In this document: piece after piece, positions 7,868-37,300 of the stretch
Layout: every line of letters starts with the position of its first letter
Position numbering within the stretch: position 1 is the first letter of the stretch
Assembly: GCA_032718475.1 (NCBI GenBank)
Contig: JAUCBJ010004665.1
Location: 1-43,054 of the forward strand
DNA: 43,054 bases
Direction of reading: 5' to 3'
DNA from: Nemertoderma westbladi
Lineage: Eukaryota; Animalia; Xenacoelomorpha
The notes under the pieces: model-generated
Seen by the model: the letters and a program-made list of their open reading frames with translations, nothing else
Databases searched by the model: none
Told to the model about the DNA's origin: nothing
Position numbers and translations under genes: made by a program

Positions 7868-8397
7868 CCAGTATTGGCTCAGTTGGCAGAGCGTGGGATT
7901 TGGGAATCTCTATTACAAGGATCGGCATGCTGCATTGCAGTTGCATTTTTAAGAATGCTGTACCGGCTTGTCGACAAAATTGCACCGCCACAACTCCCTA
8001 TCACCCATGACATTTGCTAGATCATCTGCATCTTCAAGGCCTGTGTCCTTTAAGATGCGTCTCAAGAAAGTCACGGGCTGTCCACCATGCTTATTCACTC
8101 CATGAGGCTGCCAAAGTACAAGATTATGCACTGGTTGGTCCTCACGGCGAAAGCAATGTCCTGCAAAGCGGAGGTAATTTTGTTCTAGTGTCAAGCTTGG
8201 GGGAACCAATAAGACACCTCCAATGTTATAGTGTCTGGTGGGAGATGTGTGCATTGTACTTGACACAATGAACCCGGCGTAGCATTCTTGTGAATGTGCC
8301 ATCCAGAGATTTGGTGTCCTCAGCAGTTACAGCCCAGCATGGACTCCCGTAGAGGAGTACTGGAACTACTGCTACCGAGTTCAATCCTCCATTCCGG
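7868..8397 (+). pseudogene. tRNA-derived sequence (SINE head or tRNA pseudogene) split by a LINE insertion
   Basis: 5' half ccagtattggctcagttggcagagcgtgggatttgggaatctc (A-box, 7868-7910) and 3' half accgagttcaatcctccattccgg (B-box-like, 8374-8397) lie on either side of the LINE; T-run follows. Confidence 0.55.
7911..8373 (-). mobile_element. 5'-truncated, frameshifted non-LTR retrotransposon (RTE-like) 3' end
   Basis: Translates to VVPVLLYGSPCW...LDGTFTRMLRR and LRFAGHCFRR...DRELWR, the post-RT C-terminal region; same family and same short 3' UTR as 24283-25165. Confidence 0.85.
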
Positions 8398-9226: not shown

Positions 9227-10623
9227 TATATATTCAGATTAATTATATATATTCAGATACAATAACTCTACTCTACTAATAATATGTATACATACATCAG
9301 TATATATTCAGATACAATAACTATACTCTACTAATAATATGTATACATACAGCAGTATATATTCAGATACAATAACTATACTCTACTAATAATATGTATA
9401 CATACAGCAGTATATATTCAGATATAATAACAATACTCTACTAATAATATGTATACATACAGCAGTATATATTCAGATACAATAACTATACTCTACTAAT
9501 AATATGTATACATACAGCAGTATATATTCAGATACAATAACTATACTCTACTAATAATATGTATACATACAGCAGTATATATTCAGGTATATATTCAGAT
9601 ACAATAACTATACTCTACTAATAATATGTATACATACAGCAGTATATATTCAGATACAATAACTATACTCTACTAATAATATGTATACATACAGCAGTAT
9701 ATATTCAGATACAATAACTATAATCTACTAATAATATGTATACATACATCAGTATATATTCAGATACAATAACTATACTCTACTAATAATATGTATACAT
9801 ACAGCAGTATATATTCAGATACAATAACTATACTCTACTAATAATATGTATACATACAGCAGTATATATTCAGATATAATAACTATACTCTACTAATAAT
9901 ATGTATACATACAGCAGTATATATTCAGATACAATAACTATACTCTACTAATAATATGTATACATACAGCAGTATATATTCAGATACAATAACTACACTT
10001 TACTAATAATATGTATACATACAGCAGTATATATTCAGATACAATAACTATACTCTACTAATAATATGTATACATACAGCAGTATATATTCAGATACAAT
10101 AACTACACTTTACTAATAATATGTATACATACAGCAGTATATATTCAGATACAATAACTATACTCTACTAATAATATGTATACATACAGCAGTATATATT
10201 CAGATACAATAACTATACTTTACTAATAATATGTATACATACAGCAGTATATATTCAGATACAATAACTATACTCTACTAATAATATGTATACATACAGC
10301 AGTATATATTCAGATACAATAACTATACTCTACTAATAATATGTATACATACAGCAGTATATATTCAGATACAATAACTATACTCTACTAATAATATGTA
10401 TACATACAGCAGTATATATTCAGATACAATAACTATACTCTACTAATAATATGTATACATACAGCAGTATATATTCAGATACAATAACTATACTCTACTA
10501 ATAATATGTATACATACAGCAGTATATATTCAGATACAATAACTATACTCTACTAATAATATGTATACATACAGCAGTATATATTCAGATACAATAACTA
10601 TACTTTACTTTACTAATAATATG
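9227..10623. repeat. 55-bp AT-rich satellite, array 1, ~25 copies
   Basis: Unit tatatattcagatacaataactatactctactaataatatgtatacatacagcag. Confidence 0.97.
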
Positions 10624-11387
10624 CTATCAGCTCAACTGTTTATCTGATGTCGGAAGTTTCAAGTAAAATATAATTCAACTTTACTTTATTAGATCGCGTA
10701 ATTTATTGATATTCTTTATTACACATTGTCACATTATCCGAAGGATTACTAGGTCATATTAAATTAACGTTTATTGTTTTGGTTAGATATTGGTTTTATT
10801 TTCTCCGAAATGGGATTTGCGTCCAGTTCCCCCCTGTCTCAGCCTTGGCTAGCTGGGACTTTCCAAAATCAATATTTATTATATCAATATGTTCAATTTA
10901 TTAGTTCATATGGGCCACACTTGGAATCACAAATATAATTATTAACATTTCGGTCACATTAACCTTTATTATACTATAATAGAAAATTATAATAATATAA
11001 TAAGGCATCTTGTCAAAGTGATATAAATTGGGATGGATGTTATCGGGGGTTGAACCAGCGCTGTATTGTATCATTTCAAGTTAATAAATATAATAAGGTC
11101 GATTACGCTATTTAATAACCAAAGGAGGTTGTATGAGTTATGTATAGTATTATTTTAATTATTTGTATGGAATTTATTTCGCACTATCAAATCGCCGGGA
11201 CGATTTGGAATTTAAATCGTAGTGCGACATTATTTCTCAGTATGTCCCTACGCCATACATTTTACTATATATTTCCAGTATATTCAGTTAATATCCAGTA
11301 TGTCACCGCGTCATTATTAGGTTGTTCTAGAAAGTTTAAGTGCAAAACTACAAATAATTCCCCACAAATAAATAAAATTACATTAGC

Positions 11388-11484
11388 CATTGTTCATAAT
11401 TAGCACTTTAAAGCTTTACGGCCCTCGTTCTATTACAAAATCACTCGTGCCGTAACGCTATAAAGTGCAATTCTATGTACAATG
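11388..11484. repeat. Imperfect ~40-bp-arm palindrome, probably a small transposon relic; second copy at 17963-18060
   Basis: cattgttcataattagcactttaaagctttacggc vs gccgtaacgctataaagtgcaattctatgtacaatg. Confidence 0.55.
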
Positions 11485-11836
11485 ACGTATATAATAGTTA
11501 ATATCATAAAGAAAGTAGTGATGTAATTATGTTTATTTAATATAAAGAACAAATTATTCGAAGTTTAAAAAGTTTTCTACGGCAGTTTTTCTGAATTAAT
11601 AACAAAAAAGTTATTTACTGTATCACGATATTTATTAACAACTAATTACTAATAATTAATTATTATTTATAATATTGGTATGCTAATTAAGCGTAAAAAT
11701 ATCAACCAAATTTTTTCCTATCCAGCAACTTATATTAATTAACTAGTCAAAATGAAAACAATTAAATAAAGTTACAATCTACAAAAAATGTACAAAAACC
11801 GAATTATATAATTAATAGTTAATAATAGTAGATTCG

Positions 11837-12877
11837 TTAAACTCTGATCTTCATTTCCATTTTCTCCATCGGTACGAATCTCCCAGGGTCAGTAAATGTG
11901 TACCAATAGGGTCCCTCCCAATCCTCCCTACCGTAGACGCCGTTTAGATTGGAGTAGCTGCACGACCGATACCACCAAGCCCCTATGTGGTTGACGGCGC
12001 AGTTTCCGGAAGTAGCCTCGTTGTCGCTGTCCTTAGTGGAGAACGGTTGTCCATCGAGGTAGGTACCCCCACCGGGACTCCCGTAAAGTATCGAATCACC
12101 AGCTGTACCGCTGTATCCGGATATCTGTAGCCTGTAATTACTATTAGAATCACCGATACTGAAGTTATTATACTCGGCGTACTTGTGTTCTCCTCGGTAC
12201 CAAAGATCGATCCTCAGTTTGACTCCGCCTTTGGTAAGTTCATAGATGTTGTCGAGTCCTATCCAAAAGTTATTTTCTACGGCACCGAAACCATGGGTGT
12301 ATTCCGACCATCCCAGATAGAAATCCTCCGACCCATCTATTCGTCTCTGTATCACTACCCAGGGGCCCCCGGGGACTGTGTCATCGCAGCGAAGTGAACC
12401 ATCCAATCCATTGGGGTGGCTGATGAAGGAATTGAAGTCCTCTGGGGTATTCGAGCAAATCAGTGCAGGGAGGGATGTTGGCTGGAGATCCGAGATCTTC
12501 TGTGTTAGATGAGCAATACTCTCATCCATTTTTCTAAAAACTTCATCTAATTTCCCAATACGTTGATCAACATTATTATTTTGAATTAAAATAATCTTAA
12601 TTTCTTCCTCAATGTTGTTGTACATCACAAACAACAACGTAGCTAACGCCGCTCCTACAAACAACATAACCACTACCCCAACAACAACTCCAACCCACCA
12701 TCTTCTTACTGAAACAACTCGTCTCTCAGTAACGGCGTTATTGCGTCCTATAACATTCTGTGACGTATGTTGTGGAATCGCGTTATCCGATATGACGTCA
12801 TAGACACCTTCCGGTGATCCTGCTGGAATTTCCTCCATCTCAATTTCTGTATCGCTATATATTCCATGATGAGCCAT
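11837..12877 (-). CDS. Type II transmembrane fibrinogen C-terminal domain protein A1 (FReD; FIBCD1-like architecture), 346 aa, intronless
   Basis: Acidic Tyr-containing N-tail; RR then TM WWVGVVVGVVVMLFVGAALATLLFVMY; heptad-like stalk; complete FBG motifs GGPWVVIQRRIDGSEDF, YTHGFG, FWIGLDNIY, YRLQISGYSGTAGDS, FSTKDSDNE, CAV..GAWWYRSCSYSNLNG, EMKIR. Confidence 0.93.
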   Translation of the reverse strand: MAHHGIYSDTEIEMEEIPAGSPEGVYDVISDNAIPQHTSQNVIGRNNAVTERRVVSVRRWWVGVVVGVVVMLFVGAALATLLFVMYNNIEEEIKIILIQNNNVDQRIGKLDEVFRKMDESIAHLTQKISDLQPTSLPALICSNTPEDFNSFISHPNGLDGSLRCDDTVPGGPWVVIQRRIDGSEDFYLGWSEYTHGFGAVENNFWIGLDNIYELTKGGVKLRIDLWYRGEHKYAEYNNFSIGDSNSNYRLQISGYSGTAGDSILYGSPGGGTYLDGQPFSTKDSDNEATSGNCAVNHIGAWWYRSCSYSNLNGVYGREDWEGPYWYTFTDPGRFVPMEKMEMKIRV

Positions 12878-13337
12878 GTTCAGTTAATTGATGGATTGGA
12901 TAACAAAGCTACTAGTAAAGTTTGTTGTTGGTATAGAGTTTGTTGCTTTATGAGATTTCGGTTGATTTCGAGAATTTTTAGGGAGTTAAATATAATTTCA
13001 TATGTAATACATTTACTTCGCTACTTACATTTACAGAATGTGTCGTAAGTTAATCAGGATAAACTTTTATACCAATAAATAAACCAATTTTAGGAGGAAT
13101 AAGTGTCAGAATATTTATTTATGCTGATATATAATAATGCCAAGATATTTGTTATGCTACTGTATTGTAGTAATGAACGTGTATTACCTATACAACAGTA
13201 CAGGAGGGTAATTTTTCGTGTTTTGGCTCCAAATCGCTATAAAGCACGTGATGAAACTATAAGCCGTTAATACAGTTACACAGTAATAGTTATAATTAAT
13301 ATTATAGTAGGGGAATTACTGACTGGCATTAACCCGC

Positions 13338-14627
13338 TCACATAATGCATAAAAAAAACCTTAACTTAAATTTAGTTGGACACAAATACACGAGTTGGGC
13401 CTTCGTGCAGGATAACTCTTGTGTTGGGCCTTCGTGCAGGATAACTCTTGTGTTGGGCCTTCGTGCAGGATAACTCTTGTGTTGGGCCTTCGTGCAGGAT
13501 AACTCTTGTGTTGGGCCTTCGTGCAGGATAACTCTTGTGTTGGGCCTTCGTGCAGGATAACTCTTGTGTTGGGCCTTCGTGCAGGATAACTCTTGTGTTG
13601 GGCCTTCGTGCAGGATAACTCTTGTGTTGGGCCTTCGTGCAGGATAACTCTTGTGTTGGGCCTTCGTGCAGGATAACTCTTGTGTTGGGCCTTCGTGCAG
13701 GATAACTCTTGTGTTGGGCCTTCGTGCAGGATAACTCTTGTGTTGGGCCTTCGTGCAGGATAACTCTTGTGTTGGGCCTTCGTGCAGGATAACTCTTGTG
13801 TTGGGCCTTCGTGCAGGATAACTCTTGTGTTGGGCCTTCGTGCAGGATAACTCTTGTGTTGGGCCTTCGTAATTGTCGTTAGAATCTGCAATGCTAAGGT
13901 TCTGGTACTCGGCGTATTTGTGTTCGTCTTTATACCAGTGATCTACCCTAAGTACTACACCATGTTTACTAAGTTTATATATCTGATCTAAACCGATCCA
14001 GAAGTTCTTCTCTAAGTCACCGAAACCGGAAGTGTAATTCACCCAATTTAAATAGAAATCCTGAGAACCATCCACACGTCGCTGTATTACAATCCAGGGG
14101 CCGCCAGGGACTGAGTTGTCGCACCTCGTAAATCGTTTTATACCGAAATGGTGGTTGATGATAGCGGTGGTGTTTAATGGGGTATTTAGGCAAACAAACA
14201 TAGGGTCGAGTTGCATCCATAGTTCGAAAACTGTTAATTTGTCGCTTAACTCAGAATTATTCTTGTTCAACTTACGTATCTCTTTTTCATAAAACTCATC
14301 CAATTTCTTAAATCTTTCTGCAACATATATATTTTGAACTGCCATATTGGATTCTAGTTCTTTTATATTCTTAGCCATTTTACTACCAACCAACAAGGGT
14401 ATTATAGTGACAACCAGAATAACAGTGACTACCAGACCAGCTACTACAACCCCCCATCGTCTACCCGACATTCTATCTCTACCATTCAATCTATCATTCC
14501 CAACTCCGCTGTCCGTAGAAGTTACCGGATTTTCATTAATATTACTCGTAGATACAATCTCGTAACTTTCATCTGGAATTTCCTCTAACTCAACTTCAGA
14601 ATATTGACATACATTTTGGTTCGCCAT
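13338..14627 (-). CDS. Type II TM FReD protein B1, FBG domain truncated after SIADSNDNY and read in-frame into a 29-bp repeat (possible pseudogene)
   Basis: Tail with YSEV and YEIV; TM WGVVVAGLVVTVILVVTIIPLLVG; coiled-coil-like stalk; GGPWIVIQRRVDGSQDF, FWIGLDQIY; lacks the Ca/ligand-binding P subdomain. Confidence 0.7.
   Translation of the reverse strand: MANQNVCQYSEVELEEIPDESYEIVSTSNINENPVTSTDSGVGNDRLNGRDRMSGRRWGVVVAGLVVTVILVVTIIPLLVGSKMAKNIKELESNMAVQNIYVAERFKKLDEFYEKEIRKLNKNNSELSDKLTVFELWMQLDPMFVCLNTPLNTTAIINHHFGIKRFTRCDNSVPGGPWIVIQRRVDGSQDFYLNWVNYTSGFGDLEKNFWIGLDQIYKLSKHGVVLRVDHWYKDEHKYAEYQNLSIADSNDNYEGPTQELSCTKAQHKSYPARRPNTRVILHEGPTQELSCTKAQHKSYPARRPNTRVILHEGPTQELSCTKAQHKSYPARRPNTRVILHEGPTQELSCTKAQHKSYPARRPNTRVILHEGPTQELSCTKAQHKSYPARRPNTRVILHEGPTQELSCTKAQLVYLCPTKFKLRFFLCIM
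13394..13870. repeat. 29-bp minisatellite, ~16.4 apparently identical copies
   Basis: Unit gttgggccttcgtgcaggataactcttgt. Confidence 0.97.
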
Positions 14628-14822
14628 TTATTACTGCAATAAATAATGTGTCACCTCTTATATAAATTTTTGAATCCACTTTTCAACTTTTCAGGGCAAT
14701 ATAAAGTAATTTGAAGGTAGATAAGATATGGATAAAGTTTCAAACTAAAATTACTTGTAATGAAAAAACCAACAAATAGCTGCATAAAATTGTTGGAACT
14801 TCTTTCAAGAGCTCAGTGCCTT

Positions 14823-15733
14823 GAAAATGTTTCAAATTTTCGATTTTTTATTTTTAATTTCATCTAGAGCAGAATTTAATGAGGATTTCAAATCTGAAAA
14901 CGGTTTAGTGAGATCTCTTTTACTTTTCGAGTTATGGTTGTCTGTCCGTCTGTCTCTCTTTTGGTCTGACTGTCAGAATGCAACAATGTTCATGTTACAA
15001 AATTTATATTGTCAGTTAGCTTTAATATTTTGTGGAATCTCGACTGTCTGTCTCTCGGACTGTCCCTCTAATATTTTTGCAGTCATACAGACCCTAGATA
15101 GACAGAAAAGATTCAGCTAATTACGAAAACTGACATCGGAAATAAAATTACCGACCACGAAAACCCCCATAGAGAAATTTTTAGCTATTGTGTTCAAATT
15201 ATTATATTTTGACGGACAAACCGACAGACAAACTGACACACAGACAGACATCAGATAGTCAGTTAGAAGACTAGATTTTCCAAAAAAAAGGAAAACTGAC
15301 ATCGGCAATGAATTCTCCTACCAGGAAAACCCCCATAGGTAGTATTTTGGTGTCGTATCCTTCCGCATAGGCAGACTTAATTTATCACATTATATTCTTT
15401 CATATTCACATAAAATAATTGGCGGGAAGGTTTAAACTAAAGAGTATTATCTCGGAATTACATTTTTTCACACAAAAAACACTACTCCTCCCCCATTTCT
15501 AAACTTTTTTTGTGATTTTTTATTTTTATGAAAGAAAATTTAATAAGCTTTAATATTCTTCGGCCACTTTTTTTGATTTCAGAATATTTCCGCATTTTTT
15601 TAAAGAAAAAACATAAAAAACGTGGATTTTTTCAATTTATAATAATTTTGAATTTTTTTTTACAAAATTTCCAATTCTCCGAAATAGAAAATGAAAATAA
15701 AAAAAAGTGGCCGAAGAATATGATGAAAATTAA
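14823..15733. mobile_element. Degenerate non-autonomous DNA element relic (duplicated, longer copy at ~21715-22965)
   Basis: Opposed gtct/agac microrepeats, repeated gaaaactgacatcgg and gaaaacccccatag, inverted pair atattcttcggccacttttttt / aaaaaaagtggccgaagaatat; no coding signal. Confidence 0.45.
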
Positions 15734-15772
15734 AATTAATCCAATTAATTGAAAATAAATTATATTATGAAA

Positions 15773-17195
15773 AGTATATATTCAGATACAATAACTATAC
15801 TCTACTAATAATATGTATACATACAGCAGTATATATTCAGATACAATAACTATACTCTACTAATAATATGTCTACATACAGCAGTATATATTCAGATACA
15901 ATAAATCTACTCTACTAATAATATGTATACATACAGCAGTATATATGCAGATACAATAACTATACTCTACTAATAATATGTATACATACAGCAGTATATA
16001 TTCAGATACAATAACTATACTCTACTAATAATATGTATACATACAGCAGTATATATTCAGATACAATAACTATACTCTACTAATAATATGTATACATACA
16101 GCAGTATATATTCAGATACAATAAATCTACTCTACTAATAATATGTATACATACAGCAGTATATATGCAGATACAATAACTATACTCTACTAATAATATG
16201 TATACATACAGCAGTATATATTCAGATACAATAACTATACTCTACTAATAATATGTATACATACAGCAGTATATATTCAGATACAATAAATCTACTCTAC
16301 TAATAATATGTATACATACAGCAATATATATTCAGATACAATAACTATACTCTACTAATAATATGTATACATACAGCAGTATATATTCAGATACAATAAC
16401 TATACTCTACTAATAATATGTATACATACAGCAGTATATATTCAGATACAATAACTATACTCTACTAATAATATGTATACATACAGCAGTATATATTCAG
16501 ATACAATAACTATACTCTACTAATAATATGTATACATACAGCAGTATATATTCAGATACAATAACTATACTCTACTAATAATATGTATACATACAGCAGT
16601 ATATATTCAGATACAATAACTATACTCTACTAATAATATGTATACATACAGCAGTATATATTCAGATACAATAACTATAATCTACTAATAATATGTATAC
16701 ATACAGCAGTATATATTCAGATACAATAACTATACTCTACTAATAATATGTATACATACAGCAGTATATATTCAGATACAATAACTATACTCTACTAATA
16801 ATATGTATACATACAGCAGTATATATTCAGATACAATAACTATACTCTACTAATAATATGTATACATACAGCAGTATATATTCAGATACAATAACTATAC
16901 TTTACTAATAATATGTATACATACAGCAGTATATATTCAGATACAATAACTATACTCTACTAATAATATGTATACATACAGCAGTATATATTCAGATACA
17001 ATAACTATACTCTACTAATAATATGTATACATACAGCAGTATATATTCAGATACAATAACTATACTCTACTAATAATATGTATACATACAGCAGTATATA
17101 TTCAGATACAATAACTATACTCTACTAATAATATGTATACATACAGCAGTATATATTCAGATACAATAACTATACTTTACTTTACTAATAATATG
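15773..17195. repeat. 55-bp AT-rich satellite, array 2, ~26 copies
   Basis: Same unit and same terminal junction (tatactttactttactaataatatgctatcagc) as array 1. Confidence 0.97.
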
Positions 17196-18412
17196 CTATC
17201 AGCTCAACTGTTTATCTGATGTCGGAAGTTTCAAGTAAAATATAATTCAACTTTACTTTATTAGATCGCGTAATTTATTGATATTCTTTATTACACATTG
17301 TCACATTATCCGAAGGATTACTAGGTCATATTAAATTAATAACGTTTATTTTTTTGGTTAGATATTGGTTTCGTTTTCTCCGATATGGGATTTGCGCCCA
17401 GTTCCCCCCTGTCTCAGCCTGGGCTAGCTGGGACTTTCCAAAATCAATAATTATTATATCAATATGTTCAATTTATTTGTTCATATGGGCTACACTTGGA
17501 ATCACAAATATAATTATTAACCTTTCGGTCACATTAACCTTTATTATACTGTAATAGAAAATTATAATAATATAATAAGGCATCTTGTCAAAGTGATATA
17601 AATTGGGATGGATGTTATCGGGGGTTGAACCAGTGCTGTATTGTATCATTTCAAGTAAATAAATATAATAAGGTCGATTATGGTATTTAATAACCAAAGG
17701 AGGTTGTATGAGTTATGTATAGTATTATTTTGATTATTTGTATGGAATTTATTTCGCACTATCAAATCGCCAGGACGATTTGGAATTTAAATCGTAGTGC
17801 GACATTATTTCTCAGTATGTCTCTACGCCATACATTTTACTATCTATTTCCAGTATATTCAGTTAATATCCAGTATGTCACCGCGTCATTATTAGGTTGT
17901 TCTAGAAAGTTTAAGTGCAAAACTACAAATAATTCCCCACAAATAAATAAAATTAGATTAGCCATTGTTCATAATTAGCCCTTCAAAGCTTTTACGGCCC
18001 TCGTTCTATTACAAAATCACTCGTGCCGTAACGCTATAAAGTGCTATTCTATGTACAATGACGTATATAATAGTTAATATCATAAAGAAAGTAGTGATGT
18101 AATTATGTTGATTTAATATAAAGAACAAATTATTCGAAGTTTAAAAAGTTTTCTACGGCAGTTTTTCTGAATTAATAACAAAAAAGTTATTTACTATATC
18201 ACGATATTTATTAACAACTAATTACTAATAATTAATTATTATTTATAATATTGGTATGCTAATTAAGCGTAAAAATATCAACCGAAATTTTTTGTATCCA
18301 GCAACTTAAATTAATTAACTAGTCAAAACGAAAACAATTAAATAAAGTTACAATCTACAAAAAATGTACAAAAACCGAATTATATAATAAATAGTTAACA
18401 ATAGTAGATTCG

Positions 18413-20233
18413 CTAAACTCTGATCTTCATTTCCATTTTCTCCATCGGTACGAATCTCTCAGGGTCAGTGAATGTGAACCAATAAGGTCCCCAACCCTCC
18501 CCCTCCCTCCCGTAGACGCCGTTTAGATTGGAGTAGCTGCACTCCCGATACCACCAAGCCCCTTTGAGGTTGACGGCGCAGTGTCCGGACCAAGCATCGT
18601 TATCGCGATCCTTAGTGGAGAACGGTTGTCCATTGAGGTAGTGATACCCACCGGGACTCCAAAGTATCGAATCACCAGCTGTACCACTGTATCCGGATAC
18701 CTGTAGCGTGTAGTTTCTAATAGAATCACCGATACTGAAGTTATTATACTTGGCGTACTTGTGTTCTCCTCGGTACCAAAGATCGATCCTCAGTTTGACT
18801 CCGGCTTTGGTAAGTTTGTGGATGTCGTCTAAACCCAGAAAAAACTCGCTCTCCACCTTACCAAAGCCGGTAGTATAACTGATCCATTCGCGAAAAAATG
18901 ATACTGATCCATCTACCCGCCTCTGTATTACTATCCACGGACCTCCAGGGACTGAGTTGTCGCACCTAATGACCCCATTTACTCCATTCGTATGGTTGAC
19001 GAAATCGGTGGTGTTTACTTGAGTGAATAAACAAATATATTCAGGGTGAATCTGCGACAACTTGTCCTCCAGGTCGTTATTTCTTTCTGTTAGATCATTA
19101 ATACATTTATTCAATTTCCTATTACTTTCATCTGGCTTATCTATCTTTTCCGATAGATCACCAATACTTTCATATAAATTACTCATTCTTTCATCATTTT
19201 CTACTTTGTTATTGTATATTTTTTCAGAGCTATCTCTCAGCTTGTCGTTTGTCTGTGTAAGGTTGTCACCTAAGTGACTAATCTCGTACTGCATCTCTGT
19301 GGTAAATTTGTGTTGAAGAAAGTAAAATTCAGTTACTACAGCCGCACCCACTAACAACACTACCAACACTCCACAGACAACCCCAATCCACCATCTCCTA
19401 ACTGAATGAAGTCGGCTTTCATTAACTGAGCCATCCCTATCCAGAATACTCTGCCGCTCTGTAACTCCAATACTATCTCGAATTATCTGTGATGGATGAG
19501 GTTGCGTGACGTTATACGGGATGTCTTGATATATATCTTCCTGTGGACCTGATTGAATTTCACCCATTGGAACTTCAGTATCTCTGTAGGTACCTATCTG
19601 TGGACCTGAATGAATTTCACCCATTGGAACTTCAGTATCTCTGTAGGTACCTATCTGTGGACCTGATTGAATTTCACCCATTGGAACTTCAGTATCTCTG
19701 TAGGTACCTATCTGTGGACCTGATTGAATTTCACCCATTGGAACTTCAGTATCTCTGTAGGTACCTATCTGTGGACCTGATTGAATTTCACCCATTGGAA
19801 CTTCAGTATCTCTGTAGGTACCTATCTGTGGACCTGATTGAATTTCACCCATTGGAACTTCAGTATCTCTGTAGGTACCTATCTGTGGACCTGAATGAAT
19901 TTCACCCATTGGAACTTCAGTATCTCTGTAGGTACCTATCTGTGGACCTGATTGAATTTCACCCATTGGAACTTCAGTATCTCTGTAGGTACCTATCTGT
20001 GGACCTGATTGAATTTCACCCATTGGAACTTCAGTATCTCTGTAGGTACCTATCTGTGGACCTGAATGAATTTCACCCATTGGAACTTCAGTATCTCTGT
20101 AGGTACCTATCTGTGGACCTGAATGAATTTCACCCATTGGAACTTCAGTATCTCTGTAGGTACCTTCCTGTGGACCTGAATGAATTTCACCCATTGGAAC
20201 TTCAGTATTTCTGTAGAGACATTCCTGTGCCAT
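18413..20233 (-). CDS. Type II transmembrane FReD protein A2 with ~12x tandem Tyr-motif cytoplasmic tail, 606 aa, intronless
   Basis: 19-aa repeat TYRDTEVPMGEI[H/Q]SGPQIG; RR then TM WWIGVVCGVLVVLLVGAAVVTEFYFL; longer stalk than A1; complete FBG domain ending FSTKDRDNDA...GAWWYRECSYSNLNG...EMKIRV. Confidence 0.92.
   Translation of the reverse strand: MAQECLYRNTEVPMGEIHSGPQEGTYRDTEVPMGEIHSGPQIGTYRDTEVPMGEIHSGPQIGTYRDTEVPMGEIQSGPQIGTYRDTEVPMGEIQSGPQIGTYRDTEVPMGEIHSGPQIGTYRDTEVPMGEIQSGPQIGTYRDTEVPMGEIQSGPQIGTYRDTEVPMGEIQSGPQIGTYRDTEVPMGEIQSGPQIGTYRDTEVPMGEIHSGPQIGTYRDTEVPMGEIQSGPQEDIYQDIPYNVTQPHPSQIIRDSIGVTERQSILDRDGSVNESRLHSVRRWWIGVVCGVLVVLLVGAAVVTEFYFLQHKFTTEMQYEISHLGDNLTQTNDKLRDSSEKIYNNKVENDERMSNLYESIGDLSEKIDKPDESNRKLNKCINDLTERNNDLEDKLSQIHPEYICLFTQVNTTDFVNHTNGVNGVIRCDNSVPGGPWIVIQRRVDGSVSFFREWISYTTGFGKVESEFFLGLDDIHKLTKAGVKLRIDLWYRGEHKYAKYNNFSIGDSIRNYTLQVSGYSGTAGDSILWSPGGYHYLNGQPFSTKDRDNDAWSGHCAVNLKGAWWYRECSYSNLNGVYGREGEGWGPYWFTFTDPERFVPMEKMEMKIRV
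19535..20218 (-). repeat. 57-bp in-frame coding minisatellite, 12 copies
   Basis: Unit on + strand: ctgtggacctga[t/a]tgaatttcacccattggaacttcagtatctctgtaggtacctat; length is a multiple of 3 and the frame stays open. Confidence 0.95.
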
Positions 20234-20610
20234 GTTGAAGGTAATTTACAAAGTTGTAGGTGAAAATTCGTTATAAAGAAAAAATAGAGAGAAATCTAGC
20301 TGTCACTTACAATTAATAATATCTTGACATTGAATAAAACGTACGTGCAGATGATGTGTTTTTTGCGACAACTGAATGGTAGGACTGGCTATATAAGTAC
20401 AGGCAGATGATATGTTTTAAACGGAACTTTATTTCTTCAAATATGTTTCTAATTGGATCAGCAATTAATGTTCTGTGTTTCCCAATAGAGATATTATCTA
20501 TCGCAAATAAATGCTTATGTGATGGAATGCTTGGCCGCTATGAAATAAATGGGAGTGTTGAAAAATCACCTCGTGGGAAATTTTATAATGATGTTTAAAT
20601 CAGATAGTAA

Positions 20611-20662
20611 GAACAAATAGTGAAGAACAAATAGTGAAGAACAAATAGTGAAGAACAAATAG
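20611..20662. repeat. 14-bp minisatellite, ~4 copies, at the truncation point of gene B2
   Basis: Unit gaacaaatagtgaa. Confidence 0.85.
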
Positions 20663-21432
20663 ATAGTGAGAACGTAATTGTCGTTAGAATCTCCAATGCT
20701 AAGGTTCTGGTACTCGGCGTATTTGTGTTCGTCTTTATACCAGTGATCTACCCTAAGTACTACACCATGTTTACTAAGTTTATATATCTGATCTAAACCG
20801 ATCCAGAAGTTATTCTCTAAGTCACCGAAACCGGAAGTGTAATTCACCCAATTTAAATAGAAATCCTGAGAACCATCCACACGTCGCTGTATTACAATCC
20901 AGGGGCCGCCAGGGCCACTGAGTTGTCGCACCTCGTAAATCGTTTTATACCGAAATGGTGGTTGATGATAGCGGTGGTGTTTAATGGGGTATTTAGGCAA
21001 ACAAACATAGGGTCGAGTTGCATCCATAGTTCGAAAACTGTTAATTTGTCGCTTAACTCAGAATTATTCTTGTTCAACTTACGTATCTCTTTTTCATAAA
21101 ACTCATCCAATTTCTTAAATCTTTCTGCAACATTTATATTTTGAAATGCCATATTGGATTCTAGTTCTTTTATATTCTTAGCCATTACTACCAACCAACA
21201 AGGCTATTATAGTGACAACCAGAATAACAGTGACTACCAGACCAGCTACTACAACCCCCCATCGTCTACCCGACATTCTATCTCTACCATTCAATCTATC
21301 ATTCCCAACTCCGCTGTCCGTAGAAGTTACCGGATTTTCATTAATATTACTCGTAGATACAATCTCGTAACTTTCATCTGGAATTTCCTCTAACTCAACT
21401 TCAGAATATTGACATACATTTTGGTTCGCCAT
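20663..21432 (-). pseudogene. FReD gene B2: near-identical to B1, two frameshifts and 3' truncation
   Basis: 2-bp deletion at ~21186 gives a stop right after the TM (84-aa ORF 21178-21432); 2-bp insertion at ~20915; FBG homology ends at DNYVLTI. Confidence 0.88.
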
Positions 21433-21714
21433 TTATTACAGCAATAAATAATGTGTCACCTCTTATATCAATTTTTGAATCCACTTTTCAACTTTTCAAG
21501 GCAATATAAAGTAATTTGAAGGTAGATAAGATATGGATAAAGTTTCAAACTAAAATTACTTGAAATGAAAAAACCAACAAATAGCTGCATAAAATTGTTG
21601 GAACTTCTTTCAAGAGCTCAGTGCCTTGAAAAATTATTCCCTATATTATATTTCTGCATGTGTGTGTAGTGTTAGTGGGGAAAATCTAAAGCTATCAGAA
21701 TGTCTTAAGAATTA

Positions 21715-22965
21715 AAATGTTTAAAATTTTCGATTTTTTATTTTTAATTTCATCTAGAGCAGAATTTAATGAGGATTTCAAATCTGAAAACGGTTTAGCG
21801 AGATCTCTTTTACTTTTCGAGTTATGGTTGTCTGTCCGTCTGTCTCTCTTTTGGTCTGACTGTCAGAATGCAACAATGTTCATGTTACAAAATTTATGTT
21901 GTAAGTTTTCATATTTTGTTGAACCTCATCAGTCTGCCTGTCTGCCTGCGTTTCTGTCTGTCTGCCGTAATTCATGCAGTTAGCTTTAATATTTTGTGGA
22001 ATCTCGACTGCCTGTCTCTCGGACTGTCCCTCTAATATTTTTGCAGTCATACAGACCCTAGATAGACAGAAAAAATTCAGCTAATTACGAAAACTGACAT
22101 CGGAAATAAAATTACCGACCACAAAAACCCCCATAGAGAAATTTTTAGCTATTGTGTTCTAATTATTATATTTTGACGGACAGACCGACAGACAAACTGA
22201 CACACAGACAGACATCAGATAGTCAGTTAGAAGACTAGATTTTCAAAAAAAAATAGAAAACTGACATCGGCAATGAATTCTCCTACCAGGAAAACCCCCA
22301 TAGGTAGTAGTTTGGTGTGGTATCCTTCCGTATAGGCAGACTTACTTTATCACATTATATTCATTCATATTCACATAAAATAATTGGCGGGAAGGTTTAA
22401 ACTAAAGAGTATTATCCCAGAATTACATTTTTTCACACAAAAAACACTACTCCTCCGCCATTTCTAAACTTTTTTTGTGATTTTTTATTTTTATGAAAGA
22501 AAATTTAATAAGCTTTAATATTCTTCGGCCACTTTTTTTGATTTCAGAATATTTCCGCATTTTTTTAAAGAAAAAACATAAAAAAACGTGGATTTTTTCA
22601 ATTTATAATAATTTTGAATTTTTTTTTACAAAATTTCCAATTATCCGAAATAGAAAATGAAAATAAAAAAAGTGGCCGAAGAATATGATGAAAATTAACA
22701 TGCTGGTTCCAAAAAATGTGGCATCGAAAAATGAAAATGGAAAATAATGGAGGAGTCTTTTTGGCAAAATTTTTTAAATCTTACGCCAGCCGCAAGGTGG
22801 CGCTAAAATTTTTTTTTTCACATTTTTATTTACTTAAGTTCATTCTCTTTTCGATGGTATATAGTTTTCTGCGCATTCTTCAACCATATTGGAGATATAA
22901 ACAAATAAAAAAAAAACCACAAGGGGGGCGCACCCCCCCCCCCCCCCCCCCCCCACCCCCCCTTA
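21715..22965. mobile_element. Degenerate non-autonomous DNA element relic ending in a G/C-run
   Basis: Longer copy of 14823-15733, continuing to aaggggggcgcacccc...cccctta; matching left terminus not identified. Confidence 0.4.
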
Positions 22966-24282: not shown

Positions 24283-25165
24283 TTCTTGTTCATAATTGTG
24301 GTTGACTATGTTCTCCTGCCAAGTACCTAAAACCTAACTGATCTAGACTTTGCTGATGACTTAGGAGTACTCTCAGAATCATTAGAGGGAGCCCAACGGC
24401 TCCTCAGCTCATTAGAACATGCTGCTTCTAGTGTTGGTCTTTTTATTAACTCCAAAAAGACCAATATTTTGACAGTTAATTTTGAAAGTCCCCAGCAAGT
24501 CTCTGATCGGATGAGCATAAGCTCAAAGGATGGTATGCTTGAGCATGTGGATGACTTCTGTTACCTGGGATCATGGATCCGGAAGTCAGGTGATGACCTT
24601 CGAATACGTAAGGAAAAGGCATGGGCAGCCTTGAATAGGCTTTCCAGGATTTGGAAGTCACCGAGAATTAATCGGAAACTTAAGGTCCGGTTATTTAGAG
24701 CAGCAGTAGTTCCAGTACTCCTCTATGGGAGTCCATGCTGGGCTCTAACTGCTGAGGACACCAAATCTCTGGATGGCACATTCACAAGAATGCTACGCCG
24801 GGTTCATTGTGTCAAGTACAAAGCACACATCTCCAACCAGACACTATATAACATTGGAGGTCTCTCATTGGTTCCCCCAAGCATGACACTAGAACAAAGC
24901 CGCCTCCGCTTTGCAGGACATTGCTTTCGCCGTGAGGAATGTGCTTAATCTTGTGCTTTGGCAGCCTGATGGAGTGAATAAGCATGGTGGACAGCCCATG
25001 ACTTTCTTGAGATGCATCTTAAAGGACACTGGCCTTGAAGATGCGGATGATCTAGCAAATGTCATGGGTGATAGGGAGTTGTGGCGGCTCAATTTTGTCG
25101 ACAAGCCGGCACAGCATTCTTAAAAATGCAGCTGCAATGCAGCTTGCCGATCCTAGTAGTATAGG
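24283..25165 (+). mobile_element. 5'-truncated, decayed non-LTR retrotransposon (RTE-like), RT C-terminal part
   Basis: FLFIIVVDYVL, then TDLDFADDL (RT catalytic motif, ~24337-24363), HVDDFCYLGS, KVRLFRAAVVPVLLYG, RLRFAGHCFR; frameshift near 24940; stop at 25123 and short 3' UTR ending ctagtagt. Confidence 0.9.
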
Positions 25166-26029: not shown

Positions 26030-29000
26030 TATAATTTTATTCACTAAGACCAACCTTATGTATCAATAATTTTATTTACTAAGACCAACCTTATGTATCA
26101 ATAATTTTATTCACTAATACCGACTTAATGTATCAATAATTTTATTTACTAAGACCGACCTTATGTATCAATAATTTTATTCACTAAGACCGACCTTATG
26201 TATCAATAATTTCATTCACTAAGACCGACCTTATGTATCAATAATTTTATTCACTAAGACCGACCTTATGTATCAATAATTTCATTCACTAAGACCGACC
26301 TTATGTATCAATAATTTTATTCACTAAGACCGACCTTATGTATCAATAATTTTATTTACTAAGACCGACCTTATGTATCAATAATTTTATTTACTAAGAC
26401 CGACCTTATGTATCAACAATTTTATTTACTAAGACCGACCTTATGTATCAATAATTTCATTTACTAAGACTGACCTTATGTATCAATAATTTTATTCACT
26501 AAGACCGACCTTATGTATCAATAATTTTATTTACTAAGACCGACCTTATGTATCAATAATTTTATTAACTAAGACCGACCTTATGTATCAATAATTTTAT
26601 TTACTAAGACCGAACTTATGTATCAATAATTTTATTTACTAAGACCGACCTTATGTATCAATAATTTTATTTACTAAGACCGACCTTATGTATCAATAAT
26701 TTTATTCACTAAGACCGACCTTATGTATCAATAATTTTATTTACTAAGACCGACCTTATGTATCAATAATTTTATTTACTAAGACCGACCTTAAGTATAA
26801 ATAATTTTATTCACTAAGACCGACCTTATGTATCAATAATTTTATTTACTAAGACCGACCTTATGTATCAATAATTTTATTTACTAAGACCGACCTTATG
26901 TATCAATAATTTTATTCACTAAGACCGACCTTATGTACCAATAATTTTATTCACTAAGACCGACCTTATGTATCAATAATTTTATTTACTAAGACCGACC
27001 TTATGTATCAATAATTTTATTCACTAAGAACGAAATAATGTATCAATAATATTATTTACTAAGACCGACCTTATGTATCAATAATTTTATTCACTAATAC
27101 CGACTTAATGTATCAATAATTTTATTCACTAAGAACGAACTAATGTATCAATAATATTATTTACTAAGACCGACCTTATGAATCAATAATTTTATTTACT
27201 AAGACCGACCTTATGTATCAATAATTTTATTCACTAAGAACGAAATAATGTATCAATAATATTATTTACTAAGACCGACCGTATGTATCAATAATTTTAT
27301 TTACTAAGACCGACCTTATGTATCAATAATTTTATTCACTAAGACCGACCTTATGTATCAATAATTTTATTTACTAAGACCGACCTTATGTATCAATAAT
27401 TTTATTTACTAAGACCGACCTTATGTATCAATAATTTTATTTACTAAGACCGACCTTATGTATCAATAATTTTATTTACTAAGACCGACCTTATGTATCA
27501 ATAATTTTATTTACTAAGACCGACCTTATGTATCAATAATTTTATTCACTAAGACCGACCTTATGTATCAATAATTTTATTTACTAAGACCGACCTTAAG
27601 TATAAATAATTTTATTCACTAAGACCGACCTTATGTATCAATAATTTTATTTACTAAGACCGACCTTATGTATCAATAATTTTATTTACTAAGACCGACC
27701 TTATGTATCAATAATTTTATTTACTAAGACCGACCTTATGTATCAATAATTATATTTACTAAGACCGACCTTATGTATCAATAATTCTATTCACTAAGAC
27801 CGACCTTATGTTATCAATAATTTTATTTACTAAGACCGACCTTATGTATCAATAATTTTATTCACTAAGACCGACCTTATGTATCAATAATTTTATTCAC
27901 TAAGACCAAACTAATGTATCAATAATTTTACTCACTAAGACCGAGCTTAAGTATCAATAATTTTATTTACTAAGACCGACCTTATGTATCAATAATTTTA
28001 TTTACTAAGACCGACCTTATGTATCAATAATTTTATTCACTAAGACCGACCTTATGTATCAATAATTTTATTTACTAAGACCGACCTTATGTATCAATAA
28101 TTTTATTTACTAAGACCGACCTTATGTATCAATAATTTTATTTACTAAGACCGACCTTATGTATCAATAATTTTATTTACTAAGACCGACCTTATGTATC
28201 AATAATTTTATTTACTAAGACCGACCTTATGTATCAATAATTTTATTCACTAAGACCGACCTTATGTACCAATAATTTTATTCACTAAGACCGACCTTAT
28301 GTATCAATAATTTTATTCACTAAGATCAAACTAATGTATCAATAATTTTACTCACTAAGACCGACCTTATGTATCAATAATTTTATTTACTAAGACCGAC
28401 CTTATATATCAATAATTTTATTTACTAAGACCGACCTTATGTTATCAATAATTTTATTTACTAAGACCGACCTTATGTATCAATAATTTTATTCACTAAG
28501 ACCGACCTTATGTATCAATAATTTTATTCACTAAGACCAAACTAATGTATCAATAATTTTACTCACTAAGACCGAGCTTAAGTATCAATAATTTTATTTA
28601 CTAAGACCGACCTTATGTATCAATAATTTTATTTACTAAGACCGACCTTATGTATCAATAATTTTATTCACTAAGACCGACCTTATGTATCAATAATTTT
28701 ATTTACTAAGACCGACCTTATGTATCAATAATTTTATTTACTAAGACCGACCTTATGTATCAATAATTTTATTTACTAAGACCGACCTTATGTATCAATA
28801 ATTTTATTTACTAAGACCGACCTTATGTATCAATAATTTTATTTACTAAGACCGACCTTATGTATCAATAATTTTATTCACTAAGACCGACCTTATGTAC
28901 CAATAATTTTATTCACTAAGACCGACCTTATGTATCAATAATTTTATTCACTAAGATCAAACTAATGTATCAATAATTTTACTCACTAAGACCGACCTTA

Positions 29001-32000
29001 TGTATCAATAATTTTATTTACTAAGACCGACCTTATATATCAATAATTTTATTTACTAAGACCGACCTTATGTATCAATAATTTTATTTACTAAGACCGA
29101 CCTTAAGTATAAATAATTTTATTCACTAAGACCGACCTTATGTATCAATAATTTTATTTACTAAGACCGACCTTATGTATCAATAATTTTATTTACTAAG
29201 ACCGACCTTATGTATCAATAATTTTATTTACTAAGACCGACCTTATGTATCAACAATTATATTTACTAAGACCGACCTTATGTATCAATAATTCTATTCA
29301 CTAAGACCGACCTTATGTATCAATAATTTTATTTACTAAGACCGACCTTATGTATCAATAATTTTATTCACTAAGACCGACCTTATGTATCAATAATTTT
29401 ATTCACTAAGACCAAACTAATGTATCAATAATTTTACTCACTAAGACCGACCTTAAGTATCAATAATTTTATTTACTAAGACCGTCCTTATGTATCAATA
29501 ATTTTATTTACTAAGACCGACCTTATGTATCAATAATTTTATTTACTAAGACCGACCTTATGTATCAATAATTTTATTTACTAAGACCGACCTTATGTAT
29601 CAATAATTTTATTTACTAAGACCGACCTTATGTATCAATAATTTTATTTACTAAGACCGACCTTATGTATCAATAATTTTATTTACTAAGACCGACCTTA
29701 TGTATCAATAATTTTATTTACTAAGACCGACCTTATGTATCAATAATTTTATTCACTAAGACCGACCTTATGTATCAATAATTTTATTTACTAAGACCGA
29801 CCTTATGTATCAATAATTTTATTTACTAAGACCGACCTTATGTATCAATAATTTTATTCACTAAGACCGACCTTATGTATCAATAATTTTATTTACTAAG
29901 ACCGACCTTATTTATCAATAATTTTATTTACTAAGACCGACCTTATGTATCAATAATTTTATTCACTAAGACCAACCTTATGTATCAATAATTTTATTTA
30001 CTAAGACCGACCTTATGTATCAATAATTTTATTTACTAAGACCGACCTTATGTATCAATAATTTTATTCACTAAGACCGACCTTATGTATCAATAATTTT
30101 ATTCACTAAGACCAACCTTATGTATCAATAATTTTATTTACTAAGACCGACCTTATGTATCAATAATTTTATTTACTAAGACCGACCTTATGTATCAATA
30201 ATTTTATTCACTAAGACCGACCTTATGTATCAATAATTTTATTCACTAAGACCAACCTTATGTATCAATAATTTTATTTACTAAGACCGACCTTATGTAT
30301 CAATAATTTTATTTACTAAGACCGACCTTATGTATCAATAATTTTATTCACTAAGACCGACCTTATGTATCAATAATTTTATTCACTAAGACCAACCTTA
30401 TGTATCAATAATTTTATTTACTAAGACCGACCTTATGTATCAATAATTTTATTTACTAAGACCGACCTTATGTATCAATAATTTTATTTACTAAGACCGA
30501 CCTTATGTATCAATAATTTTATTCACTAAGACCGACCTTATGTATCAATAATTTTATTTACTAAGACCGACCTTATTTATCAATAATTTTATTTACTAAG
30601 ACCGACCTTATGTATCAATAATTTTATTCACTAAGACCAACCTTATGTATCAATAATTTTATTTACTAAGACCGACCTTATGTATCAATAATTTTATTTA
30701 CTAAGACCGACCTTATGTATCAATAATTTTATTTACTAAGACCGACCTTATGTATCAATAATTTTATTTACTAAGACCGACCTTATTTATCAATAATTTT
30801 ATTTACTAAGACCGACCTTATGTATCAATAATTTTATTCACTAAGACCAACCTTATGTATCAATAATTTTATTTACTAAGACCGACCTTATGTATCAATA
30901 ATTTTATTTACTAAGACCGACCTTATGTATCAATAATTTTATTCACTAAGACCGACCTTATGTATCAATAATTTTATTCACTAAGACCAACCTTATGTAT
31001 CAATAATTTTATTTACTAAGACCGACCTTATGTATCAATAATTTTATTTACTAAGACCGACCTTATGTATCAATAATTTTATTCACTAAGACCGACCTTA
31101 TGTATCAATAATTTTATTCACTAAGACCAACCTTATGTATCAATAATTTTATTTACTAAGACCGACCTTATGTATCAATAATTTTATTTACTAAGACCGA
31201 CCTTATGTATCAATAATTTTATTCACTAAGACCGACCTTATGTATCAATAATTTTATTCACTAAGACCAACCTTATGTATCAATAATTTTATTTACTAAG
31301 ACCGACCTTATGTATCAATAATTTTATTTACTAAGACCGACCTTATGTATCAATAATTTTATTTACTAAGACCGACCTTATGTATCAATAATTTTATTCA
31401 CTAAGACCGACCTTATGTATCAATAATTTTATTTACTAAGACCGACCTTATTTATCAATAATTTTATTTACTAAGACCGACCTTATGTATCAATAATATT
31501 ATTCACTAAGACCAACCTTATGTATCAATAATTTTATTTACTAAGACCGACCTTATGTATCAATAATTTTATTTACTAAGACCAACCTTATGTATCAATA
31601 ATTTTATTTACTAAGACCGACCTTATGTATCAATAATTTTATTTACTAAGACCGACCTTATGTATCAATAATTTTATTTACTAAGACCGACCTTATGTAT
31701 CAATAATTCTATTCACTAAGACCGACCTTATGTATCAATAATTTTATTTACTAAGACCGACCTTATGTATCAATAATTCTATTTACTAAGACCGACCTTA
31801 TGTATCAATAATTTTATTTACTAAGACCGACCTTATGTATCAATAATTTTATTTACTAAGACCGACCTTATGTATCAATAATTTTATTTACTAAGACCGA
31901 CCTTATGTATCAATAATTTTATTTACTAAGACCGACCTTATGTATCAATAATTTTATTCACTAAGACCGACCTTATGTATCAATAATTTTATTTACTAAG

Positions 32001-36818: not shown

Positions 36819-37300
36819 CATTTGTTCGTTCGGCATTACATTTTAAATTATTAATAATAATAATAATATTATCTACAAACCTCACTAACATAGTTAAATT
36901 AACCAATAATGGAAACATATTGAAAAGGTAAATAAAATATCCGAGTAGTTCATGACCCCAAGCACCAAATATGTGTTTAATGGGTTTAAATTTTTTATTA
37001 ATTTATTAAATTCTAAATTCATTTAAAACATAAAAGGAAAGAAGCAGGTCACATTGGCGGTGTTTTCTAACCAAAACAATATACACAACTTTATATCATA
37101 TGCGACCAATTTGCACCACCATATAATAATGTAGAAGTTTATTCGTTGCAATTATTAAAACAATAAGCTGTTTGCTACAGCGTTAGTGCTGGTACTCCAT
37201 TACTACAGTGTATCCATTAAAAGACATAGTTAAATACGAGTAACAAAATATAAAACTTATAAAAAAAGCTTAAACTATCTAACAAATATAGCAGAGAGGT

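What the first reader, a model, noticed from the sequence alone, without database searches (positions are those of the whole stretch)
18413..20233. Fibrinogen-domain membrane receptor whose cytoplasmic tyrosine motif is amplified 12-fold
Seen: the 19-aa repeat (TYRDTEVPMGEIQSGPQIG) aligns with the single N-terminal unit of paralog A1 (IYSDTEIEMEEIPAGSPEG). Both are followed by an acidic YxxI (EDIYQDI in A2, EGVYDVI in A1). So the repeat is an in-frame expansion of a native Tyr motif and not an inserted satellite. Known: basic residues before a single internal TM with no signal peptide indicate type II topology as in FIBCD1, and acidic Tyr motifs are typical kinase/SH2 docking sites. Inference: a signalling FReD receptor whose output could be tuned by VNTR copy number, which I do not recognise as a described system. 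The motifs are not strict ITAM/ITIM consensus.
Basis: partly seen in the sequence, partly recalled or inferred. Interest (0 to 1): 0.85.

Follow-up and report, generated by a model that had tools for sequence, protein, structure and literature searches.

The report
Fibrinogen-domain receptor with stuttering inner tail
An animal gene encodes a predicted surface receptor with a fibrinogen-type recognition domain, and its inner tail holds twelve copies of a 19-residue tyrosine-bearing piece; the copy number likely differs between individuals, but the one textbook docking motif is not copied, so the repeat is likely a tolerated by-product of a repeat-prone genome rather than a signalling dial.

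Summary
Observation confirmed. A2 (18413-20233, minus strand) is a 606-codon open frame: 12 in-frame 57-bp units, one membrane helix, a stalk and a fibrinogen domain. The unit is homologous to paralog A1's single N-terminal motif. Three distinct paralogs keep two tail tyrosines. Type II topology is predicted.

The array stands in 3 of 4 laid runs, with different unit make-up. Contig depth ratios suggest about 12, 2-3 and 4-5 units, so a VNTR is likely.

The tuning idea is weak. The amplified tyrosine (QIGTYRDT in 10 of 12 units) fits none of the ITAM, ITIM, ITSM or YxxΦ patterns; the acidic YxxI stays single. An 8-bp flanking repeat explains the origin by slippage. Tandem arrays fill 57.5% of the window, and both B paralogs break off at other arrays.

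Best reading: a Dectin/FIBCD1-like recognition receptor from a recombining gene cluster, carrying a tolerated minisatellite. It lacks FIBCD1's acetyl pocket. Expression is only hinted at. The scan noted similar repeated tyrosine tails on other DNA (mussel lectin, sea squirt), but no fibrinogen-domain case.

The parts
18413..20233 (-). A2 coding sequence, 606 aa, single open frame: tail - membrane helix - stalk - fibrinogen domain
19535..20218 (-). Coding minisatellite, 12 x 57 bp (19 aa): 5 His-type and 7 Gln-type units, each with one Tyr and one in-frame Met
   Evidence: array contigs in runs X1, X2, X3
20222..20229 (-). First copy of the 8-bp direct repeat that flanks the unit (codons 2-4); likely slippage seed
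19538..19545 (-). Second copy of the 8-bp direct repeat, at the end of unit 12 (also at the end of unit 1, 20165-20172)
19520..19540 (-). Single-copy acidic YxxI motif (EDIYQDI, Y235), hemITAM-like / YxxΦ-like; not amplified
   Evidence: consensus from PMC12582321 passages
19331..19393 (-). Predicted signal-anchor membrane helix (aa 281-301), preceded by RR
   Evidence: hydropathy and charge count; continuous helix 60-131 in the A1 model
19034..19330 (-). Predicted helical (coiled-coil-like) extracellular stalk, longer than in A1
   Evidence: model made for A1; A2 by homology
18416..19033 (-). Fibrinogen-related domain; 4 core Cys and Ca-site Asp544/Asp546 present; FIBCD1 Tyr405 and His415 replaced by Leu556 and Ser566
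17182..18815 (-). Part of A2 and its 3' flank that is 86-100% identical to A1 and its flank; upstream of about 18815 identity falls to 55-66%, so A2 is a recombinant
11837..12877 (-). Paralog A1, intact, 346 aa, one copy of the unit, tail tyrosines Y7 and Y26
13869..14627 (-). Paralog B1: tail with YSEV-x9-YEIV, membrane helix, stalk and half a fibrinogen domain; homology ends at a 29-bp array (13394-13870)
20662..21432 (-). Paralog B2: 98.6% copy of B1, broken by two small indels (near 21184 and 20915) and ending at a 14-bp array (20604-20662)
15773..22700 (.). Second copy of a block (55-bp array, A gene, B gene); the first copy is 9246-15736

Best explanation
A2 is predicted to be a type II surface recognition receptor that likely signals or is taken up through its single acidic YxxI motif, and the twelve-copy tail is likely a tolerated minisatellite that lengthens the tail without adding standard docking sites. 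Shown: the open frame, the domain order, the homology of the unit to A1's first tyrosine motif, and both tyrosines in three paralogs. Inferred mechanism: the stalk oligomerises the fibrinogen heads; ligand clusters the receptor; the YxxI tyrosine is phosphorylated and bound by an SH2 protein (as in the hemITAM lectins Dectin-1 and CLEC-2, recalled) or read by the endocytic adaptor (as for the endocytic receptor FIBCD1). Inferred origin of the array: slippage between two 8-bp direct repeats just upstream of the two tyrosines copied the stretch between them. Each added tyrosine is thus a hybrid, with motif 2's upstream side and motif 1's downstream side. The array lies N-terminal of YxxI, in a tail that the A1 model leaves unstructured, so the distance from YxxI to the membrane is unchanged and any multiple of 57 bp is tolerated. 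The ligand is likely not an acetyl group.
For: Domain order and topology: (A1 model pLDDT 79.8, tail mostly under 50, fibrinogen fold TM-target 0.76-0.80). Both tyrosines conserved in A1, A2 and B. Purifying selection outside the converted part, e.g. dN 0.36 vs dS 2.8 in the first half of the fibrinogen domain and dN 0.32 vs dS 1.4 in the membrane helix. Only Y235 fits YxxΦ among A2's 14 tail tyrosines. 8-bp flanking repeat at lag 57 x 12. 57.5% of the window in tandem arrays; 10 arrays listed, 3 with periods divisible by three. Both B copies end at unrelated arrays. The array differs between samples: runs X2 and X3 give one-period 87-nt His-type contigs, whereas Gln-type units are 7 of 12 in the window; X3's last unit is His-type, the window's Gln-type. 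Depth ratios of 1.4-1.6 (X2) and 3.4 (X3) match about 2-3 and 4-5 units in a k-mer model that reproduces X1.
Against: The copied tyrosine is conserved in A1 and B, so it probably does something, and twelve copies could raise avidity for a non-standard partner. The unit runs exactly from tyrosine to tyrosine. The array is in frame and present in 3 of 4 runs from three studies, which fits tolerance and selection equally. The tool warns that contig depth is no copy number, so the unit counts are estimates. No relative of the tail was found outside the window, so motif conservation rests on three sequences. Signalling versus uptake cannot be told apart from sequence.
Confidence: 0.6

Rival explanations
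1. Copy-number-tuned signalling: each unit is a phosphotyrosine dock, and alleles with 2-12 units give graded or switch-like recruitment of an SH2 protein, as EPIYA-C duplication does for CagA-SHP2.
For: The unit is a conserved tyrosine motif; alleles likely differ in number; 19-residue spacing could suit tandem SH2 domains (inference). EPIYA-C duplication raises SHP2 binding over 100-fold (PMC4623810 abstract). Botryllus FcoR receptors vary their tyrosine motifs between alleles (PMC12582321 passages).
Against: No standard motif in the unit: Thr at +3 and no upstream acid in 10 of 12 copies. The only YxN is in unit 1 and was not copied. The YxxI was not copied. Unit differences are all amino-acid changing. 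The repeat-rich background suffices.
Confidence: 0.2
2. The array is mostly left out of the protein: it is removed by in-frame splicing at its AG|GT sites, or translation starts at an internal unit Met, so the product resembles A1.
For: Every unit carries CAG|GT and most carry TAG|GT or AAG|GT, which would remove whole units in frame, and every unit has an ATG. Earlier unchecked notes report many splice-donor arrays in this genome.
Against: The donor-like 9-mers are poor and no acceptor has a pyrimidine tract. The first ATG has A at -3 and G at +4, as in A1 and B. Run X3 holds the full unit-to-unit junction at 3.4 times the depth of the downstream coding contig, which counts against splicing only if X3 is RNA.
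Confidence: 0.08
3. A2 is a young recombinant copy that is drifting towards loss, and the array is the first sign of decay, as in B1 and B2.
For: A2 is a mosaic with a breakpoint near 18815. dN/dS is about 1 between A1 and A2 downstream of it (0.102 vs 0.098). Both B copies are broken.
Against: The frame is open over 606 codons. Contigs covering about 470-510 nt of the A2-specific coding part in three runs differ by 0, 3 and 4 letters with no gap. Core cysteines and calcium ligands are kept. The A1/A2 differences cluster at pocket-loop positions rather than spreading evenly.
Confidence: 0.12

Closest known systems
FIBCD1 (vertebrate; PMC3908420 passages; PMC9994688 passages; fish sequences P0156, P0165)
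   Same: Cytoplasmic N-terminus, one membrane helix, coiled-coil stalk, C-terminal fibrinogen domain with calcium site; endocytic receptor with suggested cytoplasmic phosphorylation sites.
   Different: FIBCD1 has a short tail with no YxxΦ in the two fish sequences. Its acetyl pocket Tyr405/His415 is Leu/Ser in A2 and His/Ser in A1. A1 and A2 do not group with FIBCD1 in the quick trees, although the test could not reject such a group (p-AU 0.43).
hemITAM type II C-type lectins, Dectin-1 and CLEC-2 (recalled; consensus [ED][ED][ED]xYxxL from PMC12582321)
   Same: Type II receptor with an acidic single-tyrosine motif in an N-terminal tail (QEDIYQDI, PEGVYDVI, PDESYEIV).
   Different: Fibrinogen head instead of C-type lectin; the motif misses the strict consensus at two or more positions; a second, non-standard tyrosine motif lies upstream and is the one repeated.
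Botryllus fester co-receptors, FcoR (PMC12582321, passages)
   Same: Invertebrate multigene receptors with two or more tail tyrosine motifs (YxxI/L/V 'core-1', hemITAM-like), haplotype copy-number variation and intergenic recombination in the linked family.
   Different: Type I immunoglobulin-family proteins; motif variation comes from alleles and splicing, not from a tandem repeat.
H. pylori CagA EPIYA-C repeats (PMC4623810, abstract and outline)
   Same: Variable tandem copies of a tyrosine segment in a disordered region at the membrane.
   Different: A bacterial effector with a proven phosphorylated SH2 ligand; here phosphorylation and binding are unshown and the unit lacks a recognisable SH2 motif.
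Sea urchin Sp185/333 cluster (PMC5103432, abstract)
   Same: Repeat-flanked segmental duplications, deletions and differing gene content between individuals; assemblies can mix allelic clusters.
   Different: Unrelated proteins; this cluster also holds broken copies.
Amphioxus protein P0169 (uncharacterised)
   Same: Predicted type II collagen-fibrinogen protein with two tyrosines (one YxxL) in a short N-terminal tail; the architecture recurs in invertebrates.
   Different: Collagen stalk, 28-residue tail, no repeat, no detectable tail homology.

Membership tests
Fibrinogen-related domain (FReD) superfamily | C-terminal fibrinogen globular domain | tested here: met
   PF00147 168 bits against a cut-off of 22; Foldseek E 3e-21 to tenascin and 8e-20 to FIBCD1 for the A1 model
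FIBCD1 | Type II topology: tail, one membrane helix, helical stalk, FReD | tested here: met
   By prediction only: hydropathy, charge bias, no N-terminal signal; helix 60-131 in the A1 model
FIBCD1 | Acetyl pocket Tyr405, Cys414-His415, Tyr431, Trp443 | tested here: not met
   Residues from PMC3908420; comparison with P0156 and P0165 gives Leu/His for Tyr405, Ser for His415 and a shorter Tyr431 loop
FIBCD1 | Calcium ligands Asp393 and Asp395 | tested here: met
   A2 Asp544/Asp546; A1 Asp285/Glu287
FIBCD1 | Orthology (one clade with FIBCD1) | tested here: inconclusive
   Separate in quick trees of 58 and 20 rows picked from 180 domain hits; backbone unresolved; p-AU 0.43
FIBCD1 | Tetramer, chitin binding, endocytosis | not testable with these tools
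   needs experiment
ITAM / ITIM / ITSM receptors | Consensus motif in the tail | tested here: not met
   0 matches in A2 and A1 (patterns recalled); B has a Val variant YxxV-x9-YxxV only
hemITAM receptors | [ED][ED][ED]xYxxL | tested here: not met
   QEDIYQDI has two of three acids and Ile at +3; hemITAM-like only
hemITAM receptors | Syk recruitment after phosphorylation | not testable with these tools
Coding minisatellite | Head-to-tail in-frame units in a coding sequence | tested here: met
VNTR | Unit number differs between individuals | tested here: inconclusive
   Unit make-up differs between runs (shown); the number is estimated from contig depth only, about 12, 2-3 and 4-5; no long reads

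The most novel reading that the evidence does not exclude
A lineage-specific family of fibrinogen-domain pattern-recognition receptors that signal directly through paired tail tyrosines diversifies both ends at once: recombination reshuffles the ligand pocket, and a germline VNTR sets the number of phosphotyrosine docks (about 2 to 12), giving individual animals different response thresholds. It would be a host-encoded counterpart of CagA's EPIYA dial, possibly in an acoelomorph worm whose group has lost much of the Toll and complement machinery.
Probability: 0.2. Interest if true: 0.8.

Novelty: new variant of a known kind. Interest (0 to 1): 0.42.

Why it matters
Invertebrate fibrinogen-domain proteins are mostly described as secreted, and FIBCD1 is the described membrane-bound one, with only a suggested signalling role (PMC3908420). 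A recombining cluster of type II members with conserved tail tyrosines gives a candidate for direct signalling by this domain. If the host is an acoelomorph, as unchecked earlier notes suggest, it is a candidate immune receptor in a group reported to lack much of the Toll and complement pathways; that survey (PMC12849515) has 0 hits for 'fibrinogen' in its main text. Natural alleles with few and many units would make the copy-number question directly testable. The repeat itself is probably ordinary for this genome.

Tried and rejected
No whole genome is held, so the family could not be counted. No RNA holder was listed.

Hints from missing cover, not used as evidence:
(a) Run X3, guessed as DNA, covered 4 of 30 bins of 20100-21899 and 27 of 30 bins of 17200-19600: the array, the A2 coding part and its 3' flank, but not B2 or the spacer. 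A high-copy element stood at 3.4 times A2 depth, against 611 (X1) and 2295 (X2). This looks like an RNA library in which A2 is transcribed with its repeat, but the library type is not on record. X3 showed no contig for the first 36 coding bases; the cause is unknown (tip clipping is one possibility).
(b) Run X4 had no cover over most A2-specific sequence while B was deep, a hint that A2 is absent from some animals. A filter can cause such holes.
Only 4 of the 6 listed runs were laid.

Homolog searches: whole A1, 511 hits, best 120 listed, none above 51% identity. A2 without the array, 61 hits, none above 55%. A1 1-165: 0 of 750 candidates. A1 1-146 against 1.84 billion representatives: 1 hit, an unrelated repeat protein, rejected. 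ESM Atlas: fibrinogen clusters only for whole A1, nothing usable for 1-140. Of 179 fibrinogen hits screened, 6 were flagged as possibly type II: two FIBCD1, amphioxus P0169, and three that look like mis-started or low-complexity models.

Positive selection on the ligand loops was tested and not shown: P-domain dN 0.129, dS 0.118, Fisher p 0.53. A2's last unit shows no direct significant match to B's tail (11,639 of 20,000 shuffles as high); the link to B goes through A1 (0 of 20,000). The careful tree did not finish, so quick trees were used. No complex prediction was run. An FFAT-like reading of YxDT (recalled motif) was dropped because B lacks it.

Ten paper searches listed no paper on a type II fibrinogen-domain receptor with a repeated tyrosine motif; most results were seen as listings only. 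PMC9835746, PMC6321704 and PMC10565955 (passages) added no membrane-bound invertebrate case. No supplements were opened; those of PMC12849515 and PMC10565955 may bear on family membership and species.

Full report
What is there. The minus strand carries four related single-frame genes in the order B2, A2, B1, A1, in two copies of a block that begins with a 55-bp array. A2 (18413-20233) encodes 606 residues and A1 (11837-12877) 346. Both have Pfam Fibrinogen_C at the C-terminus with E about 4e-49. Each has one hydrophobic segment preceded by arginines and no N-terminal signal sequence; in the 15 residues either side, K/R counts are 3 vs 1 (A2) and 4 vs 1 (A1). An AlphaFold model of A1 (73-sequence alignment, mean pLDDT 79.8) shows an unstructured tail, one long helix over membrane segment and stalk, and a fibrinogen fold matching tenascin, ficolin and FIBCD1 structures. 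Type II topology is therefore a good prediction, not a measurement.

The repeat. Twelve 57-bp units fill 20218-19535. Units 2-11 differ only by His/Gln at one codon; 5 of 12 are His-type and 7 Gln-type. The unit aligns gap-free to A1 residues 7-24 (2 of 20,000 shuffles as high), and the last unit plus YQDI to A1 7-32 (0 of 20,000). A1's first 31 residues match B's tail (0 of 20,000), although A2's unit does not match B directly. All three distinct paralogs keep two tail tyrosines, while synonymous divergence between A1 and A2 is 0.6-2.8 in this part of the gene.

Which tyrosine was copied. A2's tail has 14 tyrosines, and only Y235 (QEDIYQDI) fits YxxΦ; no ITAM, ITIM or ITSM pattern matches in A1 or A2 (patterns recalled). 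Ten of the twelve copies read QIGTYRDT, with no acid upstream and Thr at +3. The acidic YxxI, which resembles the hemITAM consensus given in PMC12582321 (passages), stays single. An 8-bp direct repeat lies just upstream of both original tyrosines, a whole number of units apart. Slippage between its copies would duplicate exactly this stretch and create hybrid motifs; this origin is inferred. All differences among units change the amino acid, which shows no constraint, though the numbers are small.

Background. Tandem arrays cover 57.5% of the window. B1 and B2 both lose the second half of the fibrinogen domain at about the same codon, where unrelated 29-bp and 14-bp arrays begin. Unchecked earlier notes on this genome report many arrays grown from a gene's own sequence. 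They also suggest an acoelomorph host, which none of my calls establishes. An in-frame array in an unstructured tail is what such a genome would be expected to keep.

Other samples. Four of six listed runs were laid, all as assembled contigs. In X1, X2 and X3 a contig covers A2-specific coding sequence up to the last unit (513, 510 and 471 nt; 0, 3 and 4 differences) and stops where the repeat makes the graph branch. X1, which may be the assembly's source, gives depths of 49.5 and 124.2 for repeat contigs. The window's allele predicts multiplicities of 4.38 and 10.46, which implies 11.3 and 11.9 per copy against 11.0 and 12.9 for the unique flanks, so 12 units are real. X2 and X3 each give one 87-nt contig spanning a full period with His-type units, and X3's last unit is His-type where the window's is Gln-type, so alleles differ in make-up. 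Depth ratios of 1.4-1.6 and 3.4 correspond to about 2-3 and 4-5 units in the same model. The tool cautions that depth is no copy number, so these are estimates. Whether X3 is RNA and whether X4 lacks A2 rest largely on missing cover and are listed under Tried and rejected; expression is not shown.

The cluster recombines. B1 and B2 are 98.6% identical and the flanks 95-100%, but A1 and A2 are only 55-66% identical upstream of about 18815 and 86-97% downstream. A2 thus joins an old paralog's tail, membrane helix and stalk to an A1-like domain end. In that end the differences gather in pocket loops, often as two- or three-base codon changes, yet dN/dS is about 1 and not significant. The junction at 15736/15773 is a new adjacency, which favours a true tandem duplication. 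Two haplotypes joined by the assembler are not excluded; this happened for Sp185/333 (PMC5103432, abstract and section list).

Comparison with known systems. The architecture is FIBCD1's (PMC3908420 passages). The calcium ligands are kept, but Tyr405 and His415 of the acetyl pocket are Leu and Ser in A2, so acetyl binding is unlikely and the gene should not be filed as FIBCD1. Orthology is unresolved (p-AU 0.43). In signalling logic it resembles hemITAM lectins (recalled) and Botryllus FcoR. CagA shows that duplicating a tyrosine segment can raise SH2 binding over 100-fold (PMC4623810 abstract), which keeps the tuning reading alive. No relative of the tail or stalk was found. Among 179 fibrinogen hits, the credible type II proteins were two FIBCD1s and one amphioxus collagen-fibrinogen protein with tail tyrosines. 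Ten paper searches listed no description of this arrangement (mostly listings).

Verdict. The most likely reading is a recognition receptor working through one acidic YxxI, with a tolerated and probably polymorphic coding minisatellite (0.6). Copy-number tuning of signalling is possible but unsupported by the motif itself (0.2). New variant of a known kind; interest 0.42.

Noticed in passing
window 13394-13870 and 20604-20662: B1 and B2 lose the second half of the fibrinogen domain within four codons of each other, followed by two unrelated arrays (29 bp and 14 bp). The DNA from there to mid-A is not homologous between the two blocks.
   Followed up: partly
window 14543-14627 (B1 tail; same in B2): YSEV-x9-YEIV is an ITAM-spaced tyrosine pair with Val at +3, closer to an activating motif than anything in A1 or A2. 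B2 could encode only an 83-residue tail-plus-membrane peptide.
   Followed up: partly
window 18416-18815 vs 11840-12240: A1/A2 differences cluster at ligand-loop positions as multi-base codon changes while the 3' flank is 95-99% identical; dN/dS about 1, not significant.
   Followed up: yes
window 18972-19347 (table 5): Contigs in X1, X2 and X4 match both the membrane-helix coding stretch and the start of the fibrinogen domain. With many deep fibrinogen-like contigs, this suggests more type II paralogs elsewhere in the genome.
   Followed up: no
window 19535-20218: Each unit holds AG|GT proto-splice sites that would remove whole units in frame, and an in-frame ATG.
   Followed up: partly
window 37308-43050 and 2250-5966: A 30-bp array (about 191 copies) has open frames of 869 and 729 codons repeating a tyrosine-bearing 10-mer, and a 66-bp array has open frames up to 612 codons. 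No gene context was checked; they show that open frames arise easily in these arrays.
   Followed up: no
window 24331-24948 (+) and 7908-8373 (-): Two fragments of a LINE-like reverse transcriptase element, 92.5% alike over 468 bp, in opposite orientation around the cluster (weak RVT_1 and DUF6451 hits below cut-off).
   Followed up: no
window 17690-18090 and 21720-21840: Very high-copy dispersed elements (contig depths in the thousands) in A2's 3' flank and upstream of B2.
   Followed up: no
window 26031-36819: A 10.8-kb array of a 35-bp unit (308 copies).
   Followed up: no
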